In this document: positions 6,191 to 26,447 of the stretch, one piece after another | How the letters are laid out: each line of letters begins with the position of its first letter | Numbering within the stretch: the first letter of the stretch is position 1 | IMG/VR virus record: IMGVR_UViG_3300013674_000001 | Coordinates: 1 to 39,870 of that record | Origin: a virus | Direction: 5' to 3' (one strand) | Length of the DNA: 39,870 nt | Notes under the pieces: generated by a model | What the model was told of the DNA's origin: nothing | The model's input: the letters and a program-made list of their open reading frames with translations, nothing else | Databases searched by the model: none | Program-made: the position numbers and the translations under genes

Positions 6191-6826
6191 TCATCCGTCC
6201 TCGTCACGCATGAAGCGGCGCACAATGAAGAACAGGGCAATCAGGGCAACCGCCGTAGAGGCTAAAGTTACGGCTTGAGGGTCAAGAAGCGGGGCAGCGG
6301 TGCGCACAACCTCGTCAGCGGCCGCCACGAGAACGGCAACACCTGCGGCCTCACCGGCCGCCCGCGTCTTCTTGCGTGGCTCTGGTTCCGGTGTGTATCG
6401 TGGAGTTTGTCGCTTCGCAGCTTCCGGCCATTTCTTTGTGCCAAAACTGGCCGCATTCGAACGAGTATCAATATGCGTAAACCCCTTGTCCGCATATTCA
6501 CCGATGCCCTTGAATCCAACCTCTTTGGCTATCCTGATAAACTCTTGCGGATCGTGATTATCCATGCGGCAATCATAGGCCATGGCCTTCATGTGAAGCG
6601 AGCCCTTTGCGCCCCCAACGCGGCGGTTATGCTCGGGGGACCGATAGGCGCTGTTAAGGATCATGGGGCGTCCAAGTCGATTGCGTAACTCCTGCAGCAT
6701 ATCCATGCTGCGCTCATCAATGGCGAGCTTTCCTGTCCCCCTGCACGCTAATTCCTGCGGCGAAAAGCTGAGCCAGCGCCATTGGTCAGTCGGAAATGCG
6801 GTCCAGTGGTTATACACTTTCATCAT
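6191..6826 (-). CDS. Endolysin, LAS-family zinc peptidase (peptidase M15A / D-Ala-D-Ala carboxypeptidase-like) with C-terminal hydrophobic anchor
   Basis: Motifs SAYRSPEHNRRVGGAKGSLHMKAMAYD and GIGEYADKGFTHIDTR match the H..D..H zinc site of the M15 family. ATG 6826 follows AAAGGAA. C-terminal TM-like segment VTLASTAVALIALFFIVRRF. Immediately upstream of the spanins. Confidence 0.85.
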   Translation of the reverse strand: MMKVYNHWTAFPTDQWRWLSFSPQELACRGTGKLAIDERSMDMLQELRNRLGRPMILNSAYRSPEHNRRVGGAKGSLHMKAMAYDCRMDNHDPQEFIRIAKEVGFKGIGEYADKGFTHIDTRSNAASFGTKKWPEAAKRQTPRYTPEPEPRKKTRAAGEAAGVAVLVAAADEVVRTAAPLLDPQAVTLASTAVALIALFFIVRRFMRDEDG

Positions 6827-6889
6827 TAAGATTCCTTTGTCACGAAAAGGATGTGGCATCATATTACTGCATGTTGGGACATTTTGTCA

Positions 6890-8371: not shown

Positions 8372-8497
8372 TTAGAATATCATAATGCCCAAGCAGTAAG
8401 CACAAAAAACAATAGCAGCGAGCCGACCAAAAAACAAAACCATGTTGCCGATCATGTTGCCTACGTCTGAATTTCTCATTTGATGACTTCTGTTCAT
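8372..8497 (-). CDS. Tiny membrane peptide, 41 aa (below the ORF-track cutoff)
   Basis: Hand translation: MNRSHQMRNSDVGNMIGNMVLFFGRLAAIVFCAYCLGIMIF. SD AGAGGT lies 7 nt upstream. Sits in an AT-rich intergenic island behind a sigma70-like promoter. Confidence 0.45.
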   Translation of the reverse strand: MNRSHQMRNSDVGNMIGNMVLFFGRLAAIVFCAYCLGIMIF

Positions 8498-8525
8498 AGT
8501 TTTACCTCTTGCTTCTAACGGTCTA

Positions 8526-8554
8526 TATATAAGAACATTAACTCGTGCTTACAA
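8526..8554 (-). promoter_or_regulatory. Candidate sigma70-type promoter TTGTAA-N17-TATATA
   Basis: Minus-strand reading: TTGTAAgcacgagttaatgttctTATATAtagaccgtTAGAAGCAagaggtaaaactATG. Shares the TAGAAGCA leader box with the promoter at 23002..23030. Confidence 0.45.
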
Positions 8555-19028: not shown

Positions 19029-19217
19029 TTAGGTGAAGTTGGCCTTCACGGCCCACATTGCGGCTTGCTCGTAGTTCGTCAGCGCGAGGCTGCGGCACCG
19101 ATTTTCCGGTACGTTGTCGCGCAGATAATCCATCAAATCTTCTGTGCGCTGCTTGATGCCAGCAACAACATCAGAACCAGACGGATTGAATTCGGGAATA
19201 GTGGTTTCGTTACCCAT
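19029..19217 (-). CDS. Hypothetical protein, 62 aa
   Basis: Strong SD (AAGGAGcaagctATG). Ends with a helix motif, SLALTNYEQAAMWAVKANF, of a type I have seen in many small phage proteins of unknown function. Confidence 0.75.
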   Translation of the reverse strand: MGNETTIPEFNPSGSDVVAGIKQRTEDLMDYLRDNVPENRCRSLALTNYEQAAMWAVKANFT

Positions 19218-19501: not shown

Positions 19502-21646
19502 TTACTGCGGTCTGTTCTGATTAATCGGAAACTGGCGCAATTGCTCTCTGGCGCGCTGCCGCGTCTCCTGCAAAAGCTTCACGCCAGTTTGACGAACTTT
19601 TTCTTGCTCGTTGCCAATCTCTGCTATTGTCTTGGCTGTCTGAGCTTCTTTCAGGGCCGTGTTGGCAACCTTCTCTGCGCTTGCTGCATCGAGATTCCGC
19701 GCTTCTGCAAGTGATTGCTGCGTGGCTGCTTCGATAAGCTCTGCCTGCGGATTGGGCGCCCCTGCGGCTTGGGCCAACTGCTGAGCAAATTCGATTTCCT
19801 CATCGGTTTTCGGTTCCTTCAGTCCTAGCTCGATCATCTTGCGATTATTGAAATCCTTGAGTGGTCCAAGACCGGCACCCGTGATGTTATCCATCAGAAC
19901 CGCCAAGGCAATCGGCATATACTGCTCACCGCCCTGAACATTGGGCAGCAATTCCATAATGCCCTTCATGTCCTCGACAGTCTGCTCGCGCTGTGTTTCG
20001 TATTGCGGTCCGACATCTGCGTACGACTTGAATTTCTTTGTGCGCAGATCGTTGCTTTCAACAAACTGGCCCGTTTGTTGGTCCATTACGCTTTCGAGAA
20101 GTCCGACCTCTCCCTCAGTGCCATCACGCTCGAGGGTGCGCTTTATGCGTGGGGTTGTGTAAATCTCTTGGGCCATGGCCTGATAGATTTCACCTGACCA
20201 TGCGATTGCGGTGTCAATGTTTTCGCTGACAACCTGCGTGTTCATGTTCTCACGCTTCATGAGTTGCGCAAGAGCTTTTCCGCTGGCCTCTTTGTCGATC
20301 GCCTCCCCCGCTACAAATCCGGTTTGCTCCTGAATGTATGCCGGGATAATCCCAAGAAGGCTTGTTGTGGATTGGTCCAAAGCTGCGGGCTTGTTGTATC
20401 CAAGCGGACCCATAGCAACAATATTTCCCTCTTCATCGGTGGCATTGTCCACCATGAGAAATGGCTTGTTGTTCTTGTCAGCCCAAATTTCAGAAATGTC
20501 TTGGTTTTCAACCTGCTCGCGGGTAAAAATCGGGACTTCCTGACCCGCTGATGCGCTGTTCTCCGCCAGCTGGGACACCTGCACGTTGTACAGGCGTTGA
20601 GCGTCCTTCATCTTGCGCACCAACCCCCGATAGCGCTCCGTTCCATCAACAAAAGCTCGGTACCCGTATCCAGTAACGACAGGAATGTATTTTCCTGCAA
20701 CACGCTTGGTTTTGCGCAGGATCTCGGTCCCACTGAATACGGTGCGCTCGCATGTCTGGTGAATAACCGTGCGCTCTCTGACAAATGTGCGCGTTTCGTC
20801 GTCGGCCAGTTCGTCCTTGATTTTGTCGTGATCTTCCTTGGAATACGTCTCAACCTTTTCGGTTGCCAGATTGTTGTAAACAAATGCAGTTGTTTCTTTT
20901 CGGACAATCTCATAGCGCGTGGCGATGTAATAGATTGGGATGTCGGCAGTTGCGCCTATGCCACGCCGACCAAAGTCCCTACTTTCAGGCGTGTATGCGC
21001 TAACAGGCTGATGACCTGGAAACTCTTTTTCAAAGCTTGCATCCGTGTATTGGGTTAGGACCGTGCAGTGTCCCGCATCGCGCTTGTCGATGCGCAAAGC
21101 CGACTGATCCCAGTACACGGTGTTGTAGCTGTTGTAGATGGGTTTCCATTCAATGTGCTGGTTTTCGTTTTCCGGGTCGCTGTCGTCGTCAAACTCGTTA
21201 GCCAGCCGCCAAGATCCCACTCCAACAGTGGCGATTTCCATGATGGCGTTGTCTACGGCTATCTTGCCTGAGTAATCCCGAAAGTCAGACCTGTATATAC
21301 CGTTAAGAAGATCTGAATCCTTGGTGGTCGTCCCCCTGTCGTCTGGCTTAAATACAACGCCCGTGGGGTTCTGGTTTCGCTCGCCCAGAAATCTTTGAAG
21401 GGGGTTCGAAACGATATCCAGCTCAAGCCTTACGCGGTCCTCGTGGTCAAACACATCCTCAAACCAGTCTTCCCACATGCCGCCGTCTACGTTGACAAAG
21501 CGCATATCCTCATTGGCCTTGTCGCGCTGATCGTCCATTGCATCCGCATCGCTTTCAATGTCGCGCTTGAAGCGCTCAAGCATTTGCTGCTCTTCGTCTG
21601 TCATCTGAACGTTTGGATCGAGAGATGTCTTGGTCTTGCGGGCCAT
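19502..21646 (-). CDS. Portal protein, P22 gp1-like, 714 aa
   Basis: Size (P22 portal is 725 aa). N-terminal pattern MWEDWFEDVF...RVRLELDIVSNPLQRFLGERNQNPTGVVFKPDD...LLNGIYRSDFR parallels P22 QWDDWLSQY...[21 protein letters not shown]...VLMGMYRTDMR. Long C-terminal Q/A/E-rich helix, as in the P22 portal barrel. Confidence 0.9.
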   Translation of the reverse strand: MARKTKTSLDPNVQMTDEEQQMLERFKRDIESDADAMDDQRDKANEDMRFVNVDGGMWEDWFEDVFDHEDRVRLELDIVSNPLQRFLGERNQNPTGVVFKPDDRGTTTKDSDLLNGIYRSDFRDYSGKIAVDNAIMEIATVGVGSWRLANEFDDDSDPENENQHIEWKPIYNSYNTVYWDQSALRIDKRDAGHCTVLTQYTDASFEKEFPGHQPVSAYTPESRDFGRRGIGATADIPIYYIATRYEIVRKETTAFVYNNLATEKVETYSKEDHDKIKDELADDETRTFVRERTVIHQTCERTVFSGTEILRKTKRVAGKYIPVVTGYGYRAFVDGTERYRGLVRKMKDAQRLYNVQVSQLAENSASAGQEVPIFTREQVENQDISEIWADKNNKPFLMVDNATDEEGNIVAMGPLGYNKPAALDQSTTSLLGIIPAYIQEQTGFVAGEAIDKEASGKALAQLMKRENMNTQVVSENIDTAIAWSGEIYQAMAQEIYTTPRIKRTLERDGTEGEVGLLESVMDQQTGQFVESNDLRTKKFKSYADVGPQYETQREQTVEDMKGIMELLPNVQGGEQYMPIALAVLMDNITGAGLGPLKDFNNRKMIELGLKEPKTDEEIEFAQQLAQAAGAPNPQAELIEAATQQSLAEARNLDAASAEKVANTALKEAQTAKTIAEIGNEQEKVRQTGVKLLQETRQRAREQLRQFPINQNRPQ

Positions 21647-21677
21647 CAGTGAACCTTAAACGAGCAATAGTTGCGCG

Positions 21678-21706
21678 ATTATTGCATTCAAAGCCCTTGC
21701 AATCAA
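21678..21706 (-). promoter_or_regulatory. Candidate late promoter TTGATT-N17-AATAAT upstream of portal
   Basis: Minus-strand reading: TTGATTgcaagggctttgaatgcAATAATcgcg. The spacer contains the inverted repeat ATTGCA-N11-TGCAAT. Lies between the terminator at 21712..21754 and the portal ATG. Confidence 0.4.
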
Positions 21707-21711
21707 TACGC

Positions 21712-21754
21712 ATAAAAAGACCCGACTGGCACCGTCAAGGTTCTGCCAGCCGGG
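21712..21754 (-). terminator. Rho-independent terminator ending the TerL-proximal cassette
   Basis: Minus-strand reading: CCCGGCTGGC-(14-nt loop)-GCCAGTCGGG (10 bp with one G.U) followed by TCTTTTTATGCG. Confidence 0.7.
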
Positions 21755-21828
21755 CGTGAGTGGTATTGAGGCACAGATACAGAGTATCGTGATAGGTGAG
21801 TTAGGTTAGGCCCATGTGCGCCGGGGTG

Positions 21829-22074
21829 TCAATCCCGTTTCTCTCGTTCGCGCATCATGGCGTCAGCCGCTATGTAGGCCCCTTCCGCAATACCTCTCCA
21901 AAAGCGATAAAGTGCCTCTCGCTCTGTTTCGCCTTTGCGCATGTCGATAGGATCACCGCTGTAGGCAGCTGCCTCTAGGATTTTCATCGCGAACTCGTCC
22001 CGCAGCGTCTTTCCATCATGAAACAACGTTATTTCACCGGGTTTGTGTAGGTTAGTATCACTGATATCAATCAT
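21829..22074 (-). CDS. Hypothetical protein, 81 aa
   Basis: The track ORF starts at a TTG (22077). The ATG at 22074 overlaps the upstream stop (TGATG). Contains LRDEFAMKILEAAAYS. Confidence 0.7.
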   Translation of the reverse strand: MIDISDTNLHKPGEITLFHDGKTLRDEFAMKILEAAAYSGDPIDMRKGETEREALYRFWRGIAEGAYIAADAMMREREKRD

Positions 22075-22250
22075 CAATCTGTCCTCGCTTTGGGGCGCAG
22101 AGACTTGCTCGGCGCGGTTTCATTCGGTTGCTGGTGTTCGTGGCACATGAACTCAACCTGGTCCATGTCGTAGAGGCCGGCGTCGTGCGCGAAGTCCTGG
22201 CACTCGTCCCACGAATTGAAGGTGAGGATAATCACGTAGAGAGTTTTCAT
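22074..22250 (-). CDS. Hypothetical protein, 58 aa (below the ORF-track cutoff)
   Basis: Hand translation: MKTLYVIILTFNSWDECQDFAHDAGLYDMDQVEFMCHEHQQPNETAPSKSLRPKARTD. Both ends are coupled to their neighbours by TGATG overlaps. Confidence 0.55.
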   Translation of the reverse strand: MKTLYVIILTFNSWDECQDFAHDAGLYDMDQVEFMCHEHQQPNETAPSKSLRPKARTD

Positions 22251-22786
22251 CAGATTTCCTGCAGCTCGATCACGTCCCCGTTCTCATTGGTGAACGTGCC
22301 GGTGACCGCAAGTCCATCCTTGATGGTGAGAGTAAGTTTGCGTTCATCGCTATCAACTTGCGTCGGAGTCCACGTGACATTAGAGCCGTACAGCTTCACA
22401 GTCTCAACAACTGGTTCTACTACCTTGATACGATAGCGAAGCACATCTGAATCGAAGCTGGGATCTCCGGGGAACGTATGCCACCCCAAATCGTCAACAT
22501 AATATTCAATTTTGCTCCCTTTCTTAGCCGCCAACAACAGCGCGCCCTTCTCAGCGTCTGTCATTTCACCCCACGGGCGCGGCCCGTGGATCAATTCGGC
22601 TATGAGATTGCATTGTAGGTGCTGGTCGTGACCCTCATTCTTAACGGATTCGCCATTTTTCTTAAAATGCCCCAAAGGCGGCACGACCCAAGGATAACTG
22701 TCACCAGGATAATCGGGTGAATAAACAGCGGGACCACCAATGGCATCATTCCCATTTCTGTAAAACTTCCCGGTTTTAACTTCCAT
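22250..22786 (-). CDS. Hypothetical protein, 178 aa
   Basis: Track ORF trimmed to ATG 22786, preceded by GAGAGGGAAAG. Contains PWGEMTDAEKGALLLAAKKGSKIEYY. I recognise no family. Confidence 0.75.
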   Translation of the reverse strand: MEVKTGKFYRNGNDAIGGPAVYSPDYPGDSYPWVVPPLGHFKKNGESVKNEGHDQHLQCNLIAELIHGPRPWGEMTDAEKGALLLAAKKGSKIEYYVDDLGWHTFPGDPSFDSDVLRYRIKVVEPVVETVKLYGSNVTWTPTQVDSDERKLTLTIKDGLAVTGTFTNENGDVIELQEI

Positions 22787-22830
22787 GTTCTTTCCCTCTC
22801 GTTTCTGTAGGCGCAAGTAGGTGGTGGGGG

Positions 22831-22974
22831 TTAGTCATCTTTATGTTGCCGTTTCATTTTGCGATAATGACGCCAATTGTAAAATCTTGCCCACGCAAAA
22901 AAGAATGCGCAAAATAAAATTACCAAGCCCATCCAAATTAAACCTACAATCTCTCCAAGTGTGTAAATAAACAT
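22831..22974 (-). CDS. Tiny membrane peptide, 47 aa (below the ORF-track cutoff)
   Basis: Hand translation: MFIYTLGEIVGLIWMGLVILFCAFFFAWARFYNWRHYRKMKRQHKDD. GGAG lies 9 nt upstream. AT-rich island directly behind the promoter at 23002..23030. Confidence 0.5.
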   Translation of the reverse strand: MFIYTLGEIVGLIWMGLVILFCAFFFAWARFYNWRHYRKMKRQHKDD

Positions 22975-23001
22975 CTCGTCTACTCCTGTGCTTCTACAGG
23001 T

Positions 23002-23030
23002 AATATATAAGCTACCGCTTACAGCGTCAA
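23002..23030 (-). promoter_or_regulatory. Candidate sigma70-type promoter TTGACG-N17-TATATT
   Basis: Minus-strand reading: TTGACGctgtaagcggtagcttaTATATTacctgTAGAAGCAcaggagtagacgagATG. Starts 3 nt after the TerL stop codon. Confidence 0.5.
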
Positions 23031-23032
23031 CC

Positions 23033-24367
23033 CTACCCCAACCTTTTTGCGCGGGGAATGTGCAGTGCTTTCTTCTCCTTCTTGGGGCGCGTCATTTTGG
23101 GAAACAGTTCAGTCATCACCCACACAAGAGCGTCCATACGGTCTGGTGAATAGCCCTGTTCCTTGCGATCAAAGCCCGATGTAAAGCTGCACATCTGGTC
23201 AACCAGTTCGGGCAGTTCTTTTGCGTGTCGCACCTTCTCTTGCTCGTAGAGTGCCGCGATCGGCTCCGCGCGAATATGCTTGCCGCGTGTAGCCGTGACA
23301 AGTTTAACGGGTATAGTTCTACCACGCGCGACAGATCTAATAGTGGCCTCTACCATTTCTCCCCCCTGGTTCTTCTCTGCGACAATGCAATCAGCATCGA
23401 GAGTGTCGTATAGCGATATGGCTTTCCGCGCCCACTCTTCGGGGCGACAAACCCCGCTTTCATCTTCCAGCACGTATCCTCGTCCGTTTGACAGCCCCCC
23501 AGCCACGATACCAGTTTCATTGCTTCCTACCTCTGACGAAATGGCCGGATCGATGGCCACCACAATGCGCTCAAGTTCCGGGGGTGTGTCTATCTTAATC
23601 CACTTGCGGCGCCACAGTGCGTTGTCATCGTCTGCCGTGAATACACCGTCAAAGAATCTGCGGCGCTGTCGCTCTGAGAGATTCTTGAGGCTTTCAATAT
23701 ACTCAGGAGATAAGTTGTCCGCATTGTCGATGGGGTTCACCGTCATGTAACGGTAGTTTTCTTCGTAGTCCGGTATTTCGCGCTTGCTCGGGTCGGCTGG
23801 ATCAACGCCGAGAACAAACATCTGATAAGTCCAGTGCGCAGATGTGGTGGGGTTCAGGTCGATGTACATCTTTTGCTTTAGAATGTTGCCATTGATGTCT
23901 TTGACCACCTGCGCCAAGCGAGATTTCACAAGCTCAAATGCGGTCATGACAATCTGAGACGCTTCGTTCAGGTAGATGGTCACATATTCGCGGCCAAGAA
24001 CCTTATCCAAGCGCTCTTTGTCCTTGAGGCCGGCGAGCCAAATTTGAGACCCATTCGGGAAAGCAAAGTATCCGTCCTTTTCCTTCCACTTGATGACAAG
24101 TCCAGGAAAGGCCAGATCGACCACAGTGGGAATCGTCTCGTTGCCGACCGATTGCTTGGTATCAACACCGTCATTGCGAAATATGGCGTGGCGAGATCCA
24201 GGCGCCTTTAGCGCTCTTACAATGATACTGTAGCAGATGAAGAATGTTTTTCCTGACCTAGACCCACCATAGACCAGGAAGTACCGAGCTGCAGTGCTGA
24301 ATACCGCGCGAACTTCTTTCTGCTTCTCGGTAAGCGTAAAGGTGTTTTGGTCTGGGATGGCATTCAC
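23033..24367 (-). CDS. terL: Terminase large subunit, 444 aa (GTG start)
   Basis: Walker A motif YGGSRSGKTFF. The C-terminal nuclease-type region VAIDPA...CIVAEKNQGGEM is typical of PBSX/P22-type TerL. GTGA overlap with the TerS stop. Confidence 0.9.
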   Translation of the reverse strand: MNAIPDQNTFTLTEKQKEVRAVFSTAARYFLVYGGSRSGKTFFICYSIIVRALKAPGSRHAIFRNDGVDTKQSVGNETIPTVVDLAFPGLVIKWKEKDGYFAFPNGSQIWLAGLKDKERLDKVLGREYVTIYLNEASQIVMTAFELVKSRLAQVVKDINGNILKQKMYIDLNPTTSAHWTYQMFVLGVDPADPSKREIPDYEENYRYMTVNPIDNADNLSPEYIESLKNLSERQRRRFFDGVFTADDDNALWRRKWIKIDTPPELERIVVAIDPAISSEVGSNETGIVAGGLSNGRGYVLEDESGVCRPEEWARKAISLYDTLDADCIVAEKNQGGEMVEATIRSVARGRTIPVKLVTATRGKHIRAEPIAALYEQEKVRHAKELPELVDQMCSFTSGFDRKEQGYSPDRMDALVWVMTELFPKMTRPKKEKKALHIPRAKRLG

Positions 24368-24759
24368 AGTTCGCTGTCGTCTTTAGCAATGATAATGGTC
24401 GGCGCGCGCTGGTCGTTGTCCTTCTCAAACAGACCAAGGTGACGAGATAGCTTATCCAGCGCATTCAGCTTATCTTTGTTGGAAAGAAACGTCTCGTTAT
24501 CTGGGGTGTGGGAAGGCGTGAAGGCAATATCTGCGATTTCCTGCAACACGCGCTCACGGGTAATTTCCAGCTTTTCGGCAGCCTTGGCTTGCGCCTCAGC
24601 AATGGCATTTTGAATGTGAAGTTTTGTCAATAGCTGATAACCTATCTGCCGCGCTGTTTTTGCGCTGTACCCTGCTCTGATTGCAGCCTGAGTTGCGTTC
24701 AGGTCGATAAGATACTCCTGCACAAACCTGGCTTCCTTTTTGGTGAGCTTATTGGGCAT
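24364..24759 (-). CDS. terS: Terminase small subunit, 131 aa
   Basis: The N-terminus KKEARFVQEYLIDLNATQAAIRAGYSAKTARQIGYQLL is the classic HTH signature of Terminase_2-type small subunits. Directly upstream of TerL. Confidence 0.9.
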   Translation of the reverse strand: MPNKLTKKEARFVQEYLIDLNATQAAIRAGYSAKTARQIGYQLLTKLHIQNAIAEAQAKAAEKLEITRERVLQEIADIAFTPSHTPDNETFLSNKDKLNALDKLSRHLGLFEKDNDQRAPTIIIAKDDSEL

Positions 24760-26144: not shown

Positions 26145-26447
26145 CTACTGATTTGCGCACATCATGGCGTTTTCAAAGGTTGAACCATAAGCGGTGCAGA
26201 AACCAACTGGCGAATTAGGATACCATTGGATTTCCCAAAGACTATCGTGAGCGACCGCTTCTTTGAAATCATCGCGGCTGATCCACTCGCTTTCGTCAAA
26301 TCCATCCGTAGGTCCGTGCGCACATTCATCCTTGCTACGGAAATACTGCTGAACACTTTCATAGACGCCCTTATGGGGATCGTGTGCAATGTGAAGTGTC
26401 ACATGCTTCGGCAAGAAGTCTGTGAATTTCGGATTTTCATGATCCAT
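26145..26447 (-). CDS. Hypothetical protein, 100 aa
   Basis: Track ORF trimmed to ATG 26447, preceded by AAAGGGAAAACAA. This is the same RBS string as on plus-strand genes. Confidence 0.7.
   Translation of the reverse strand: MDHENPKFTDFLPKHVTLHIAHDPHKGVYESVQQYFRSKDECAHGPTDGFDESEWISRDDFKEAVAHDSLWEIQWYPNSPVGFCTAYGSTFENAMMCANQ

What the first reader, a model, noticed from the sequence alone, without database searches (positions are those of the whole stretch)
21712..23030. Self-contained promoter-to-terminator cassette of four unknown genes between TerL and portal
In the P22-type order (TerS, TerL, portal, scaffold, coat, gp4, gp10) TerL and portal are normally adjacent. Here about 1.4 kb sits between them.
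- A sigma70-like promoter (TTGACG-N17-TATATT, 23002..23030) starts 3 nt after the TerL stop.
- A 47-aa membrane peptide follows, then 178-, 58- and 81-aa ORFs chained by 1-nt TGATG overlaps.
- A good intrinsic terminator follows (21712..21754: 10-bp stem plus TCTTTTTAT).
- A fresh promoter candidate for portal follows (21678..21706).
This is the architecture of a moron-type autonomous unit. None of the four products resembles anything I can name. It is the best candidate in this window for an undescribed accessory function, such as superinfection exclusion, anti-defence or host manipulation.
Basis: partly seen in the sequence, partly recalled or inferred. Interest (0 to 1): 0.62.

Follow-up and report, generated by a model that had tools for sequence, protein, structure and literature searches.

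The report
Accessory gene cassette between terminase and portal
A metagenomic P22-type phage carries four small non-structural genes of unknown function, with their own promoter and terminator, between two packaging genes that touch in its relatives; this is a real but fairly ordinary phage add-on gene slot.

Summary
On the minus strand, TerL (23033-24367) is followed by a sigma70-like promoter (23030-23002, 10/12). Then come a 47-aa membrane peptide and ORFs of 178, 58 and 81 aa chained by TGATG overlaps. An intrinsic terminator (21712-21754, dG -24 kcal/mol) precedes the portal gene (19502-21646).

The cassette is accessory. Relatives with 58-68% identical portals have TerL and portal adjacent or 177-283 nt apart. 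Only the closest relatives (portal at least 99%) carry the cassette, with swapped content: a fifth 39-aa peptide gene that this genome lost, or a 138-aa gene replacing p47.

The "moron" reading needs three corrections.
- The complete genome has no integrase, recombinase or CI-type repressor, so prophage expression is unlikely.
- Cassette-free relatives also show a promoter-like site and a terminator at this junction, so these signals belong to the slot.
- The genes are independent travellers, not one system. Elsewhere, p178 and p81 relatives sit alone among early genes.

No product matches Pfam, NCBIfam, PADLOC or PDB. p81 hits only PHROG families without tested function, and p58 is an orphan under strong purifying selection.

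Best guess: an early-expressed host-takeover or counter-defence cassette. An Acb2/Tad1-family gene fills the next junction. This scan has noted TerL-portal accessory slots before, on other phage DNA.

The parts
23033..24367 (-). Large terminase subunit gene (TerL), the upstream flank
   Evidence: Pfam Terminase_6N 4e-15, Terminase_3 1e-12 and Terminase_6C 3e-12; PHROG 979 2e-68
23002..23030 (-). Sigma70-like promoter TTGACG-N17-TATATT, starting 3 nt after the TerL stop
   Evidence: Scores 10/12, the best minus-strand site in the genome and equal to the two early promoters. Only partly conserved in L082, where it reads TTGATT-17-TATCGT.
22975..23001 (-). Predicted 5' leader with the TAGAAGCA box, a small hairpin overlapping the Shine-Dalgarno sequence, and AGGAG
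   Evidence: The composite CTTATATAT-N5-7-TAGAAGCA occurs only twice in the genome, here and at 8510-8533. None of 100 shuffles contains it. Hairpin energy is -5.7 kcal/mol.
22831..22974 (-). p47, a 47-aa single-pass membrane peptide with a basic C-terminal tail
   Evidence: Kyte-Doolittle maximum 2.67 over residues 9-27; C-terminal flank net charge +5; gene GC 34.7%. No family hit. Identical in L097 and L098, and replaced by a 138-aa PHROG 16527 gene in L082.
22250..22786 (-). p178, a 178-aa protein of a small, unannotated phage family
   Evidence: 27 homologues among 5.8 billion clusters, none annotated. The alignment shows a conserved W-x-E-M-T-D-A-E-K-G-A-L-L-L-A core. AlphaFold2 pLDDT is 79.9. 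No PDB match; BFVD matches are uncharacterised phage proteins.
22074..22250 (-). p58, a 58-aa orphan protein whose start overlaps the p178 stop (TGATG)
   Evidence: Found only in this lineage. dN/dS against L082 is 0.086 at dS 0.69, so it is a real gene under strong purifying selection.
21829..22074 (-). p81, an 81-aa helical-hairpin protein whose start overlaps the p58 stop (TGATG)
   Evidence: PHROG 2201 9e-11 (function unknown) and PHROG 30599 1.4e-5. 17 representatives in 1.8 billion proteins. AlphaFold2 gives helices 24-37 and 51-80 with pLDDT 76, and there is no PDB match.
21829..21836 (-). GGGATTGA, the junction of a 108-nt deletion that removed a fifth gene (39-aa membrane peptide) present in L097 and L082
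   Evidence: Alignment and BLAST against L082 and L097: the insert is flanked there by GGGAATGA and GGGATTGA.
21712..21754 (-). Intrinsic terminator: 11-bp stem plus UCUUUUUAU
   Evidence: Energy -24.0 kcal/mol, z -4.3, 0 of 200 shuffles as stable. 100% identical in L082 and L097.
21678..21706 (-). Weak promoter candidate for portal (TTGATT-17-AATAAT with TG)
   Evidence: Scores 9/12, consensus scan only.
19502..21646 (-). Portal gene, the downstream flank
   Evidence: Pfam P22_portal 1.3e-104; about 30% identity to P22-group portals.

Best explanation
This is a hypervariable accessory-gene slot at the TerL-portal junction of an apparently lytic, distantly P22-like phage. It is filled here by two stacked modules.

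- **Module 1** is an AT-rich unit: sigma70 promoter, short leader and a tiny membrane peptide (p47).
- **Module 2** is three translationally coupled small genes (p178, p58, p81).

**Shown**
- The genes are real.
- They are absent from the same junction in relatives.
- They are not virion genes.
- They are bracketed by a consensus-quality host-type promoter and a strong intrinsic terminator.

**Inferred**
- Host RNA polymerase reads the promoter as soon as the DNA enters. It scores as well as the phage's early promoters.
- These genes would then be made early, even though they sit inside the late morphogenesis cluster. Their relatives in other phages lie in early regions.
- The terminator would keep this early transcript out of portal and the genes beyond it.

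**Most likely role (inferred, weak)**
- Host takeover or counter-defence by the soluble proteins.
- A membrane-level role for the peptide, such as exclusion of other phages or control of membrane integrity or lysis timing.
For: **Anatomy**

**Accessory status**
- TerL and portal are 2-12 nt apart in L094, L117 and L118. They are 177-283 nt apart and gene-free in L093/L115/L116 and L099. L002 also has them next to each other.
- Only L082/L083 and L097 carry the cassette. Their portals are 99.6% and about 99% identical to the window's.

**Flux inside the cassette**
- p47 is swapped for another gene in L082.
- A 39-aa gene present in relatives is deleted here.
- dS is 0.3-0.7 in the cassette against 0.08 in portal.

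**Independence of the genes**
- The p178 and p81 profiles co-occur only in this lineage.

**Early-gene character**
- p178 homologues elsewhere lie between Prim-Pol or Toprim replication genes and terminase genes.
- p81 homologues lie next to a primase-helicase or an integrase.

**Promoter strength**
- It scores 10/12, equal to the early promoters.

**No lysogeny genes**

**Counter-defence context**
- The next junction (portal-scaffold) holds an Acb2/Tad1-hairpin gene: PF24729, 1.8e-12, 47.7 bits against a cut-off of 27.
- That junction also differs between close relatives.
Against: - No transcript data exist. The promoter and terminator are consensus and folding predictions only.
- The genome-wide number of 10/12 sites is no higher than chance.
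- The promoter is only partly conserved in L082 (8/12).
- No product matches any known anti-defence, defence or host-takeover family, and no fold match gives a function.
- The link to counter-defence rests on neighbourhood alone.
- Gene-free relatives also show the promoter and terminator pair. These signals may therefore serve the backbone rather than the cassette.
- The host is unknown.
Confidence: 0.55

Rival explanations
1. It is a classical moron. The cassette would be expressed from a repressed prophage and benefit the lysogen, for example by superinfection exclusion through the membrane peptide.
For: - The promoter and terminator bracket the genes, and the genes are absent in relatives.
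- The p47 module is AT-rich.
- P22 itself encodes membrane-acting exclusion functions within its late-region moron (PMC2629481).
Against: - The complete genome with direct terminal repeats has no integrase, serine recombinase, S24-type repressor or HTH_3 protein.
- None was seen among the early ORFs.
- The only genome-collection relative sits on a 40-kb phage-sized contig in a metagenome-assembled genome (MAG), not in a chromosome.
Confidence: 0.1
2. The promoter and terminator are backbone punctuation of the TerL-portal junction. They may form a small RNA unit or an operon boundary that sets the TerL to portal expression ratio. The ORFs would then be largely neutral or selfish passengers that landed there.
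For: - L093 and L099 lack the genes. Yet each has a promoter-like site directly after TerL (TAGACA-18-TATATT at 10/12, or TATGGT at 9/12) and an intrinsic terminator 50-80 nt further on.
Against: - p58 is under strong purifying selection (dN/dS 0.086), and the trio is kept in two lineages with different TerL genes. The genes are therefore not neutral.
- L094, L117 and L118 have no spacer at all, so the punctuation is not essential.
Confidence: 0.15
3. It is a late, virion-related function: a packaging or head-assembly accessory, or a lysis-timing function with p47 acting as a holin-like peptide.
For: - The cassette lies inside the morphogenesis cluster and on the same strand.
- p47 has one membrane helix and a highly charged C-terminal tail, as holins do.
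Against: - The cassette is absent from relatives that share 58-68% identical portal and about 70% identical coat proteins.
- p47 is missing in L082.
- Homologues of p178 and p81 sit in early regions elsewhere.
- No structural PHROG hit was found.
Confidence: 0.1

Closest known systems
Morons of lambdoid phages, as defined for HK97/HK022 and quoted in Villafane et al. 2008 (PMC2629481)
   Same: One or more genes are inserted between two genes that are adjacent in related phages. They carry their own promoter and terminator and play no part in morphogenesis.
   Different: Classical morons sit in temperate phages and are expressed from the prophage. This genome shows no lysogeny genes. Only the p47 module differs in composition from its flanks. 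The promoter and terminator are also seen at gene-free junctions of relatives.
The 'ant moron' of P22-like phages, between genes 16 and 9 (PMC2629481)
   Same: It lies on a P22-type virion chassis. It is a late-operon slot with rapidly changing sets of non-assembly genes, ten types in sixteen genomes.
   Different: The junction differs. That paper states that no morons are present anywhere else in the morphogenetic clusters of those phages. The content also differs (immI, sieA). Those phages are temperate enterobacterial phages, and the portal here is only about 30% identical to theirs.
TerL-portal accessory slot of epsilon15/phiV10-type phages
   Same: It is the same junction. Small swappable genes with their own signals sit there, some of them anti-CBASS sponges.
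   Different: Those units face the opposite way and carry a tRNA-Arg and a structured leader RNA. Nothing comparable was found here: there is no tRNA and no Rfam match.
Acb2/Tad1 cyclic-nucleotide sponge genes embedded among capsid genes
   Same: In this genome a small accessory gene of that family sits at the neighbouring portal-scaffold junction.
   Different: None of the four cassette proteins matches that family. p81 is also a helical hairpin, but a profile comparison gave probability 0.1%.

Membership tests
Moron (inserted, independently expressed unit in a phage operon) | Absent from the same position in related phages | tested here: met
   L094, L117 and L118 have TerL and portal adjacent. 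L093/L115/L116 and L099 have short gene-free gaps.
Moron (inserted, independently expressed unit in a phage operon) | Own promoter upstream and own terminator downstream | tested here: inconclusive
   Both signals are present by sequence: promoter 10/12, terminator -24 kcal/mol. There are no transcript data. Similar signals also occur at gene-free junctions.
Moron (inserted, independently expressed unit in a phage operon) | Nucleotide composition different from the flanks | tested here: inconclusive
   The promoter plus p47 module is 41.5% GC against 51.3% for the genome. p178, p58 and p81 are 50-55% GC, like their flanks.
Moron (inserted, independently expressed unit in a phage operon) | [quoted passage not shown] | tested here: not met
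   The complete genome has no match to integrase, resolvase, S24 repressor or HTH_3. Expression itself is not testable with these tools.
Virion assembly core of P22-like phages | Conserved in position across phages that share the portal, scaffold and coat genes | tested here: not met
   The cassette is missing in all relatives with 58-68% portal identity.
Known anti-defence or defence protein families (Pfam Acb2_Tad1_hairpin, Tad2-like; PADLOC models) | Profile match above the family threshold | tested here: not met
   None of the four proteins has a Pfam, NCBIfam or PADLOC hit. PF11195 (Tad2-like) is absent from the genome. Comparison of p81 with the window's Acb2-like gene was negative.
Holin (considered for p47) | At least one membrane helix plus a charged C-terminus, adjacent to the endolysin, and kept in all relatives | tested here: not met
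   The helix and the +5 tail are present. However, the gene lies about 16 kb from the M15 endolysin ORF (6191-6862) and is absent from L082.
Single co-evolved multi-gene system (operon of interacting partners) | The component families co-occur in unrelated genomes | tested here: not met
   HMM searches with the p178 and p81 profiles over 120 fetched loci found them together only in this lineage. p58 has no relatives elsewhere.

The most novel reading that the evidence does not exclude
One or more of p178, p58 and p81 could be a new kind of counter-defence protein, made early from a private promoter inside the late region. One example would be an inhibitor of host sensors that recognise terminase or portal proteins, encoded right between those two genes. 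The promoter and terminator slot, which also exists empty in relatives, could be a reusable landing pad that gives any captured gene early expression.
Probability: 0.15. Interest if true: 0.7.

Novelty: new member of a known kind. Interest (0 to 1): 0.34.

Why it matters
If the reading is right, this junction is a second place, besides the classical ant moron, where P22-type virion modules tolerate accessory genes. It would also show how a phage without lysogeny genes could express captured early-type genes from inside its late cluster, using a host-type promoter and an insulating terminator.

The p178 family, the p81 family and the p58 orphan are uncharacterised phage proteins next to a recognised anti-immune gene. 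That makes them reasonable candidates for counter-defence screens.

On present evidence this remains a plausible but ordinary example of phage mosaicism, with no function assigned.

Tried and rejected
**Searches that found nothing**
- DNA similarity to 50,697 GenBank phages: no match.
- tblastn of p178, p81 and p58 against the same set: no match.
- Pfam, NCBIfam and PADLOC scans of the four proteins: nothing.
- PDB sequence searches with p81 and with the p178 family profile: nothing below E 0.09.
- Foldseek of the p178 model against PDB: best E 0.86. Against BFVD: only uncharacterised phage proteins.
- Foldseek of the p81 model against PDB: best E 1.9.
- Rfam scan of 21000-23500: none. tRNA scan: none. 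Repeats inside the cassette: none.
- The promoter/leader box was not found in any non-identical locus.

**Ideas rejected**
- *The p178 core is Tad2-like.* I recalled a resemblance between its helix-plus-strands core and Tad2/DUF2829. PF11195 finds nothing in the genome, and no Tad2 structure appears among the fold matches.
- *p81 is related to the window's Acb2-like hairpin.* Profile comparison gave probability 0.1%.
- *p47 is related to the 41-aa peptide behind the same leader box.* They share only a 6-residue match in the membrane helix.

**Errors and artefacts**
- and the 41-aa peptide row used a wrong frame for the 41-aa peptide. They should be ignored; they were redone.
- L098 joins window 22706 to window 26337 with 100% identity on both sides. 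I read it as an assembly chimera, not a rearrangement.
- The 758-aa hit P0034 to p81 is a repeat protein and was judged spurious.

**Not possible**

Full report
**What the window is.** The window is a complete IMG/VR virus record of 39,870 bp with direct terminal repeats. Its packaging and head genes run on the minus strand in P22 order:
- TerS, 24364-24759 (Terminase_2, 3e-30);
- TerL, 23033-24367;
- portal, 19502-21646 (P22_portal, 1.3e-104);
- scaffold, then coat.

The portal is only about 30% identical to those of P22-group phages. No GenBank phage shares DNA with the region.

**Checking the observation.**
- The TerL stop is followed after 3 nt by TTGACG-N17-TATATT (23030..23002, 10/12).
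- A 27-nt leader carries an AGGAG Shine-Dalgarno sequence.
- Four genes follow: p47 (22831-22974), p178 (22250-22786), p58 (22074-22250) and p81 (21829-22074). The last three are joined by TGATG stop/start overlaps.
- An 11-bp hairpin followed by UCUUUUUAU (21712-21754) folds at -24.0 kcal/mol, z = -4.3.
- A weak promoter candidate (9/12) precedes portal.

On significance, the promoter is one of only three sites scoring 10/12 or better in the genome. The other two are the presumptive early promoters. That count is not above chance, since Markov simulations give 3.7 per genome. All three sites nevertheless lie in spacers and face genes. The expectation for this particular 58-nt spacer is about 0.003.

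The genes are real.
- Against the relative L082, p58 has dN/dS 0.086 at dS 0.69. p178 has 0.46 and p81 has 0.43.
- The p178 start is fixed by the family alignment.
- p47 has one strongly hydrophobic helix and a +5 C-terminal tail.

**Is it accessory?** Yes. I collected relatives through TerL, portal and the cassette proteins from viral, genome and metagenome collections.

| Relative | Portal identity | TerL-portal junction |
|---|---|---|
| L094 | 65% | 12 nt apart |
| L117 | 61% | 4 nt apart |
| L118 | 58% | 2 nt apart |
| L093/L115/L116 | 68% | 177 nt, no gene |
| L099 | 67% | 283 nt, no gene |

L002, whose TerL is 70% identical, also has TerL next to its portal.

Only the closest relatives carry the cassette.
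- **L097** is 99.8% identical in DNA. It has the same four genes plus a fifth, a 39-aa membrane peptide coupled to p81 by another TGATG.
- **L082/L083** have a portal 99.6% identical but a TerL only 47% identical. They carry a 138-aa gene (PHROG 16527, function unknown) in place of p47. After it come p178 (54% identical), p58 (88%), p81 (95% over the last 60 residues) and the 39-aa gene.

The window lost the 39-aa gene through a 108-nt deletion between GGGAATGA and GGGATTGA. Synonymous divergence is 0.3-0.7 in the cassette and 0.08 in portal. A recombination boundary therefore lies inside p81. This is the pattern of a slot in rapid flux, not of a conserved core.

**Three corrections to the "self-contained moron" picture.**

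1. *Lysogeny.* Six-frame profile searches of the complete genome find no tyrosine integrase, serine recombinase, S24 peptidase or HTH_3 domain. The early ORFs I scanned are RusA, HNH endonucleases, methyltransferases and a NinB-like protein. Expression from a prophage, the hallmark of classical morons, is therefore unlikely.

2. *The signals belong to the junction.* In L093 a promoter-like site (TAGACA-18-TATATT, 10/12) lies 16 nt after the TerL stop. A hairpin with a U6 run follows about 35 nt later. L099 has TAGACA-18-TATGGT 4 nt after the stop, followed by two terminators. Relatives with a gene-free spacer thus still show a promoter and terminator pair. Either the genes landed inside an existing small transcription unit, or these are scars of lost cassettes.

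3. *The cassette is a stack of independent pieces.*
   - The promoter plus p47 segment is 41.5% GC, and the p47 gene itself 34.7%, against 51.3% for the genome. p178, p58 and p81 are 50-55%.
   - The composite CTTATATAT-N5-7-TAGAAGCA occurs exactly twice in the genome, here and at 8510-8533. There it precedes another tiny membrane peptide (41 aa, 8372-8497). None of 100 shuffles contains it. This lead came from note e1-3295197 and was confirmed here. The two peptides are not similar.
   - Profile searches over all 120 fetched loci find the p178 and p81 families together only in this lineage.

**What the proteins are.** None matches Pfam, NCBIfam or PADLOC.
- **p178** belongs to a small phage family, with 27 clusters among 5.8 billion and none annotated. 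It has three modules around a conserved WGEMTDAEKGALLLA core. The AlphaFold2 model has pLDDT 79.9. It has no PDB match and only uncharacterised phage proteins as BFVD matches.
- **p81** matches PHROG 2201 (function unknown, 9e-11) and PHROG 30599 (labelled transcriptional regulator, 1.4e-5). One family member appears to carry an N-terminal ribbon-helix-helix-like segment. That is my reading of its sequence and was not tested. The model is a helical hairpin with no PDB match.
- **p58** is an orphan.

In other phages, p178 homologues lie between replication genes (Prim-Pol, Toprim primase) and terminase genes. p81 homologues lie beside a primase-helicase or an integrase. These are early-region positions.

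**How it most likely works.** The promoter looks as good as the phage's early promoters. The genes are of the early-region type, and no lysogeny genes were found. The most economical reading has three steps.
- Host RNA polymerase transcribes the cassette early in infection.
- The terminator stops this transcript from running into portal.
- Late transcription either reads through or uses the weak promoter in front of portal.

All of this is inference from sequence.

The role of the products is unknown. I favour host takeover or counter-defence, for two reasons. The neighbouring portal-scaffold junction carries an Acb2/Tad1-hairpin family gene (19029-19217; PF24729, 1.8e-12, 47.7 bits against a cut-off of 27). 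That junction is also variable, since L082 has two different genes there. The evidence is neighbourhood only. A membrane-level role for p47 is equally open.

[quoted passage not shown] The unit meets that definition. The same paper notes that classical P22-like phages have morons only between genes 16 and 9. A filled TerL-portal junction is therefore unusual for this virion type, though not for phages in general. Earlier notes of this scan (unverified) describe accessory slots at the same junction in epsilon15/phiV10-type phages. The unit fails the prophage-expression criterion. It matches no known anti-defence family, and it is not a co-evolving multi-gene system.

**Verdict.** This is a new member of a known kind, a phage accessory-gene slot. 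Interest is modest because no function could be assigned.

Noticed in passing
window 19029-19217 (-): A 62-aa gene between portal and scaffold matches Pfam Acb2_Tad1_hairpin (PF24729) at E 1.8e-12, 47.7 bits against a cut-off of 27. It is a probable cyclic-nucleotide sponge (anti-CBASS or anti-Thoeris) embedded in the head-gene cluster. Relatives L093, L094 and L099 have no such gene there.
   Followed up: partly
window 8372-8554 (-): A second AT-rich unit (38.9% GC) with a promoter-like site, the same CTTATATAT...TAGAAGCA box, a Shine-Dalgarno sequence and a 41-aa membrane peptide lies between two large tail-region genes. The box occurs only at these two places in the genome.
   Followed up: partly
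L093 4410-4510; L099 7693-7910: Gene-free TerL-portal junctions of relatives carry a promoter-like site followed 50-80 nt later by an intrinsic terminator, with no ORF between. L093 has a CU-rich run (CCCUCUCUCUCU) there. This could be a small RNA unit or the scar of a lost cassette.
   Followed up: no
L097 1580-1699; L082 2250-2369: A 39-aa, very hydrophobic peptide gene, coupled to p81 by TGATG, is present in close relatives and deleted in the window. Each of the three cassette-bearing genomes keeps at least one tiny membrane peptide: p47 only, the 39-aa peptide only, or both.
   Followed up: partly
L082 4697-5733: The portal-scaffold junction of the 99.6%-portal relative holds different genes from the window: an 86-aa ORF hitting PHROG 12296 (labelled tail fiber protein, 4.6e-16) and a 256-aa ORF. 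This junction is therefore a second variable slot.
   Followed up: no
L098 (JGI 3300013617 contig, 29,550 bp): This contig joins window position 22706 (inside p178) directly to window position 26337, with 100% identity on both sides. It is probably an assembly chimera and creates a false 90-aa gene call.
   Followed up: partly
L082 714-804 versus window 23005-23095: The last 60 nt or so of TerL and the -35 region are 87% identical between the window and L082, although the TerL proteins are only 47% identical. A recombination seam therefore lies at the promoter.
   Followed up: no
L120 4775-5011: In a contig from the same metagenome as L097, a 78-aa multi-pass membrane protein (PHROG 2421, 1.9e-10) sits directly upstream of, and overlaps, a portal gene that is 80% identical over its first 74 residues. 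No TerL lies within 5 kb upstream.
   Followed up: no
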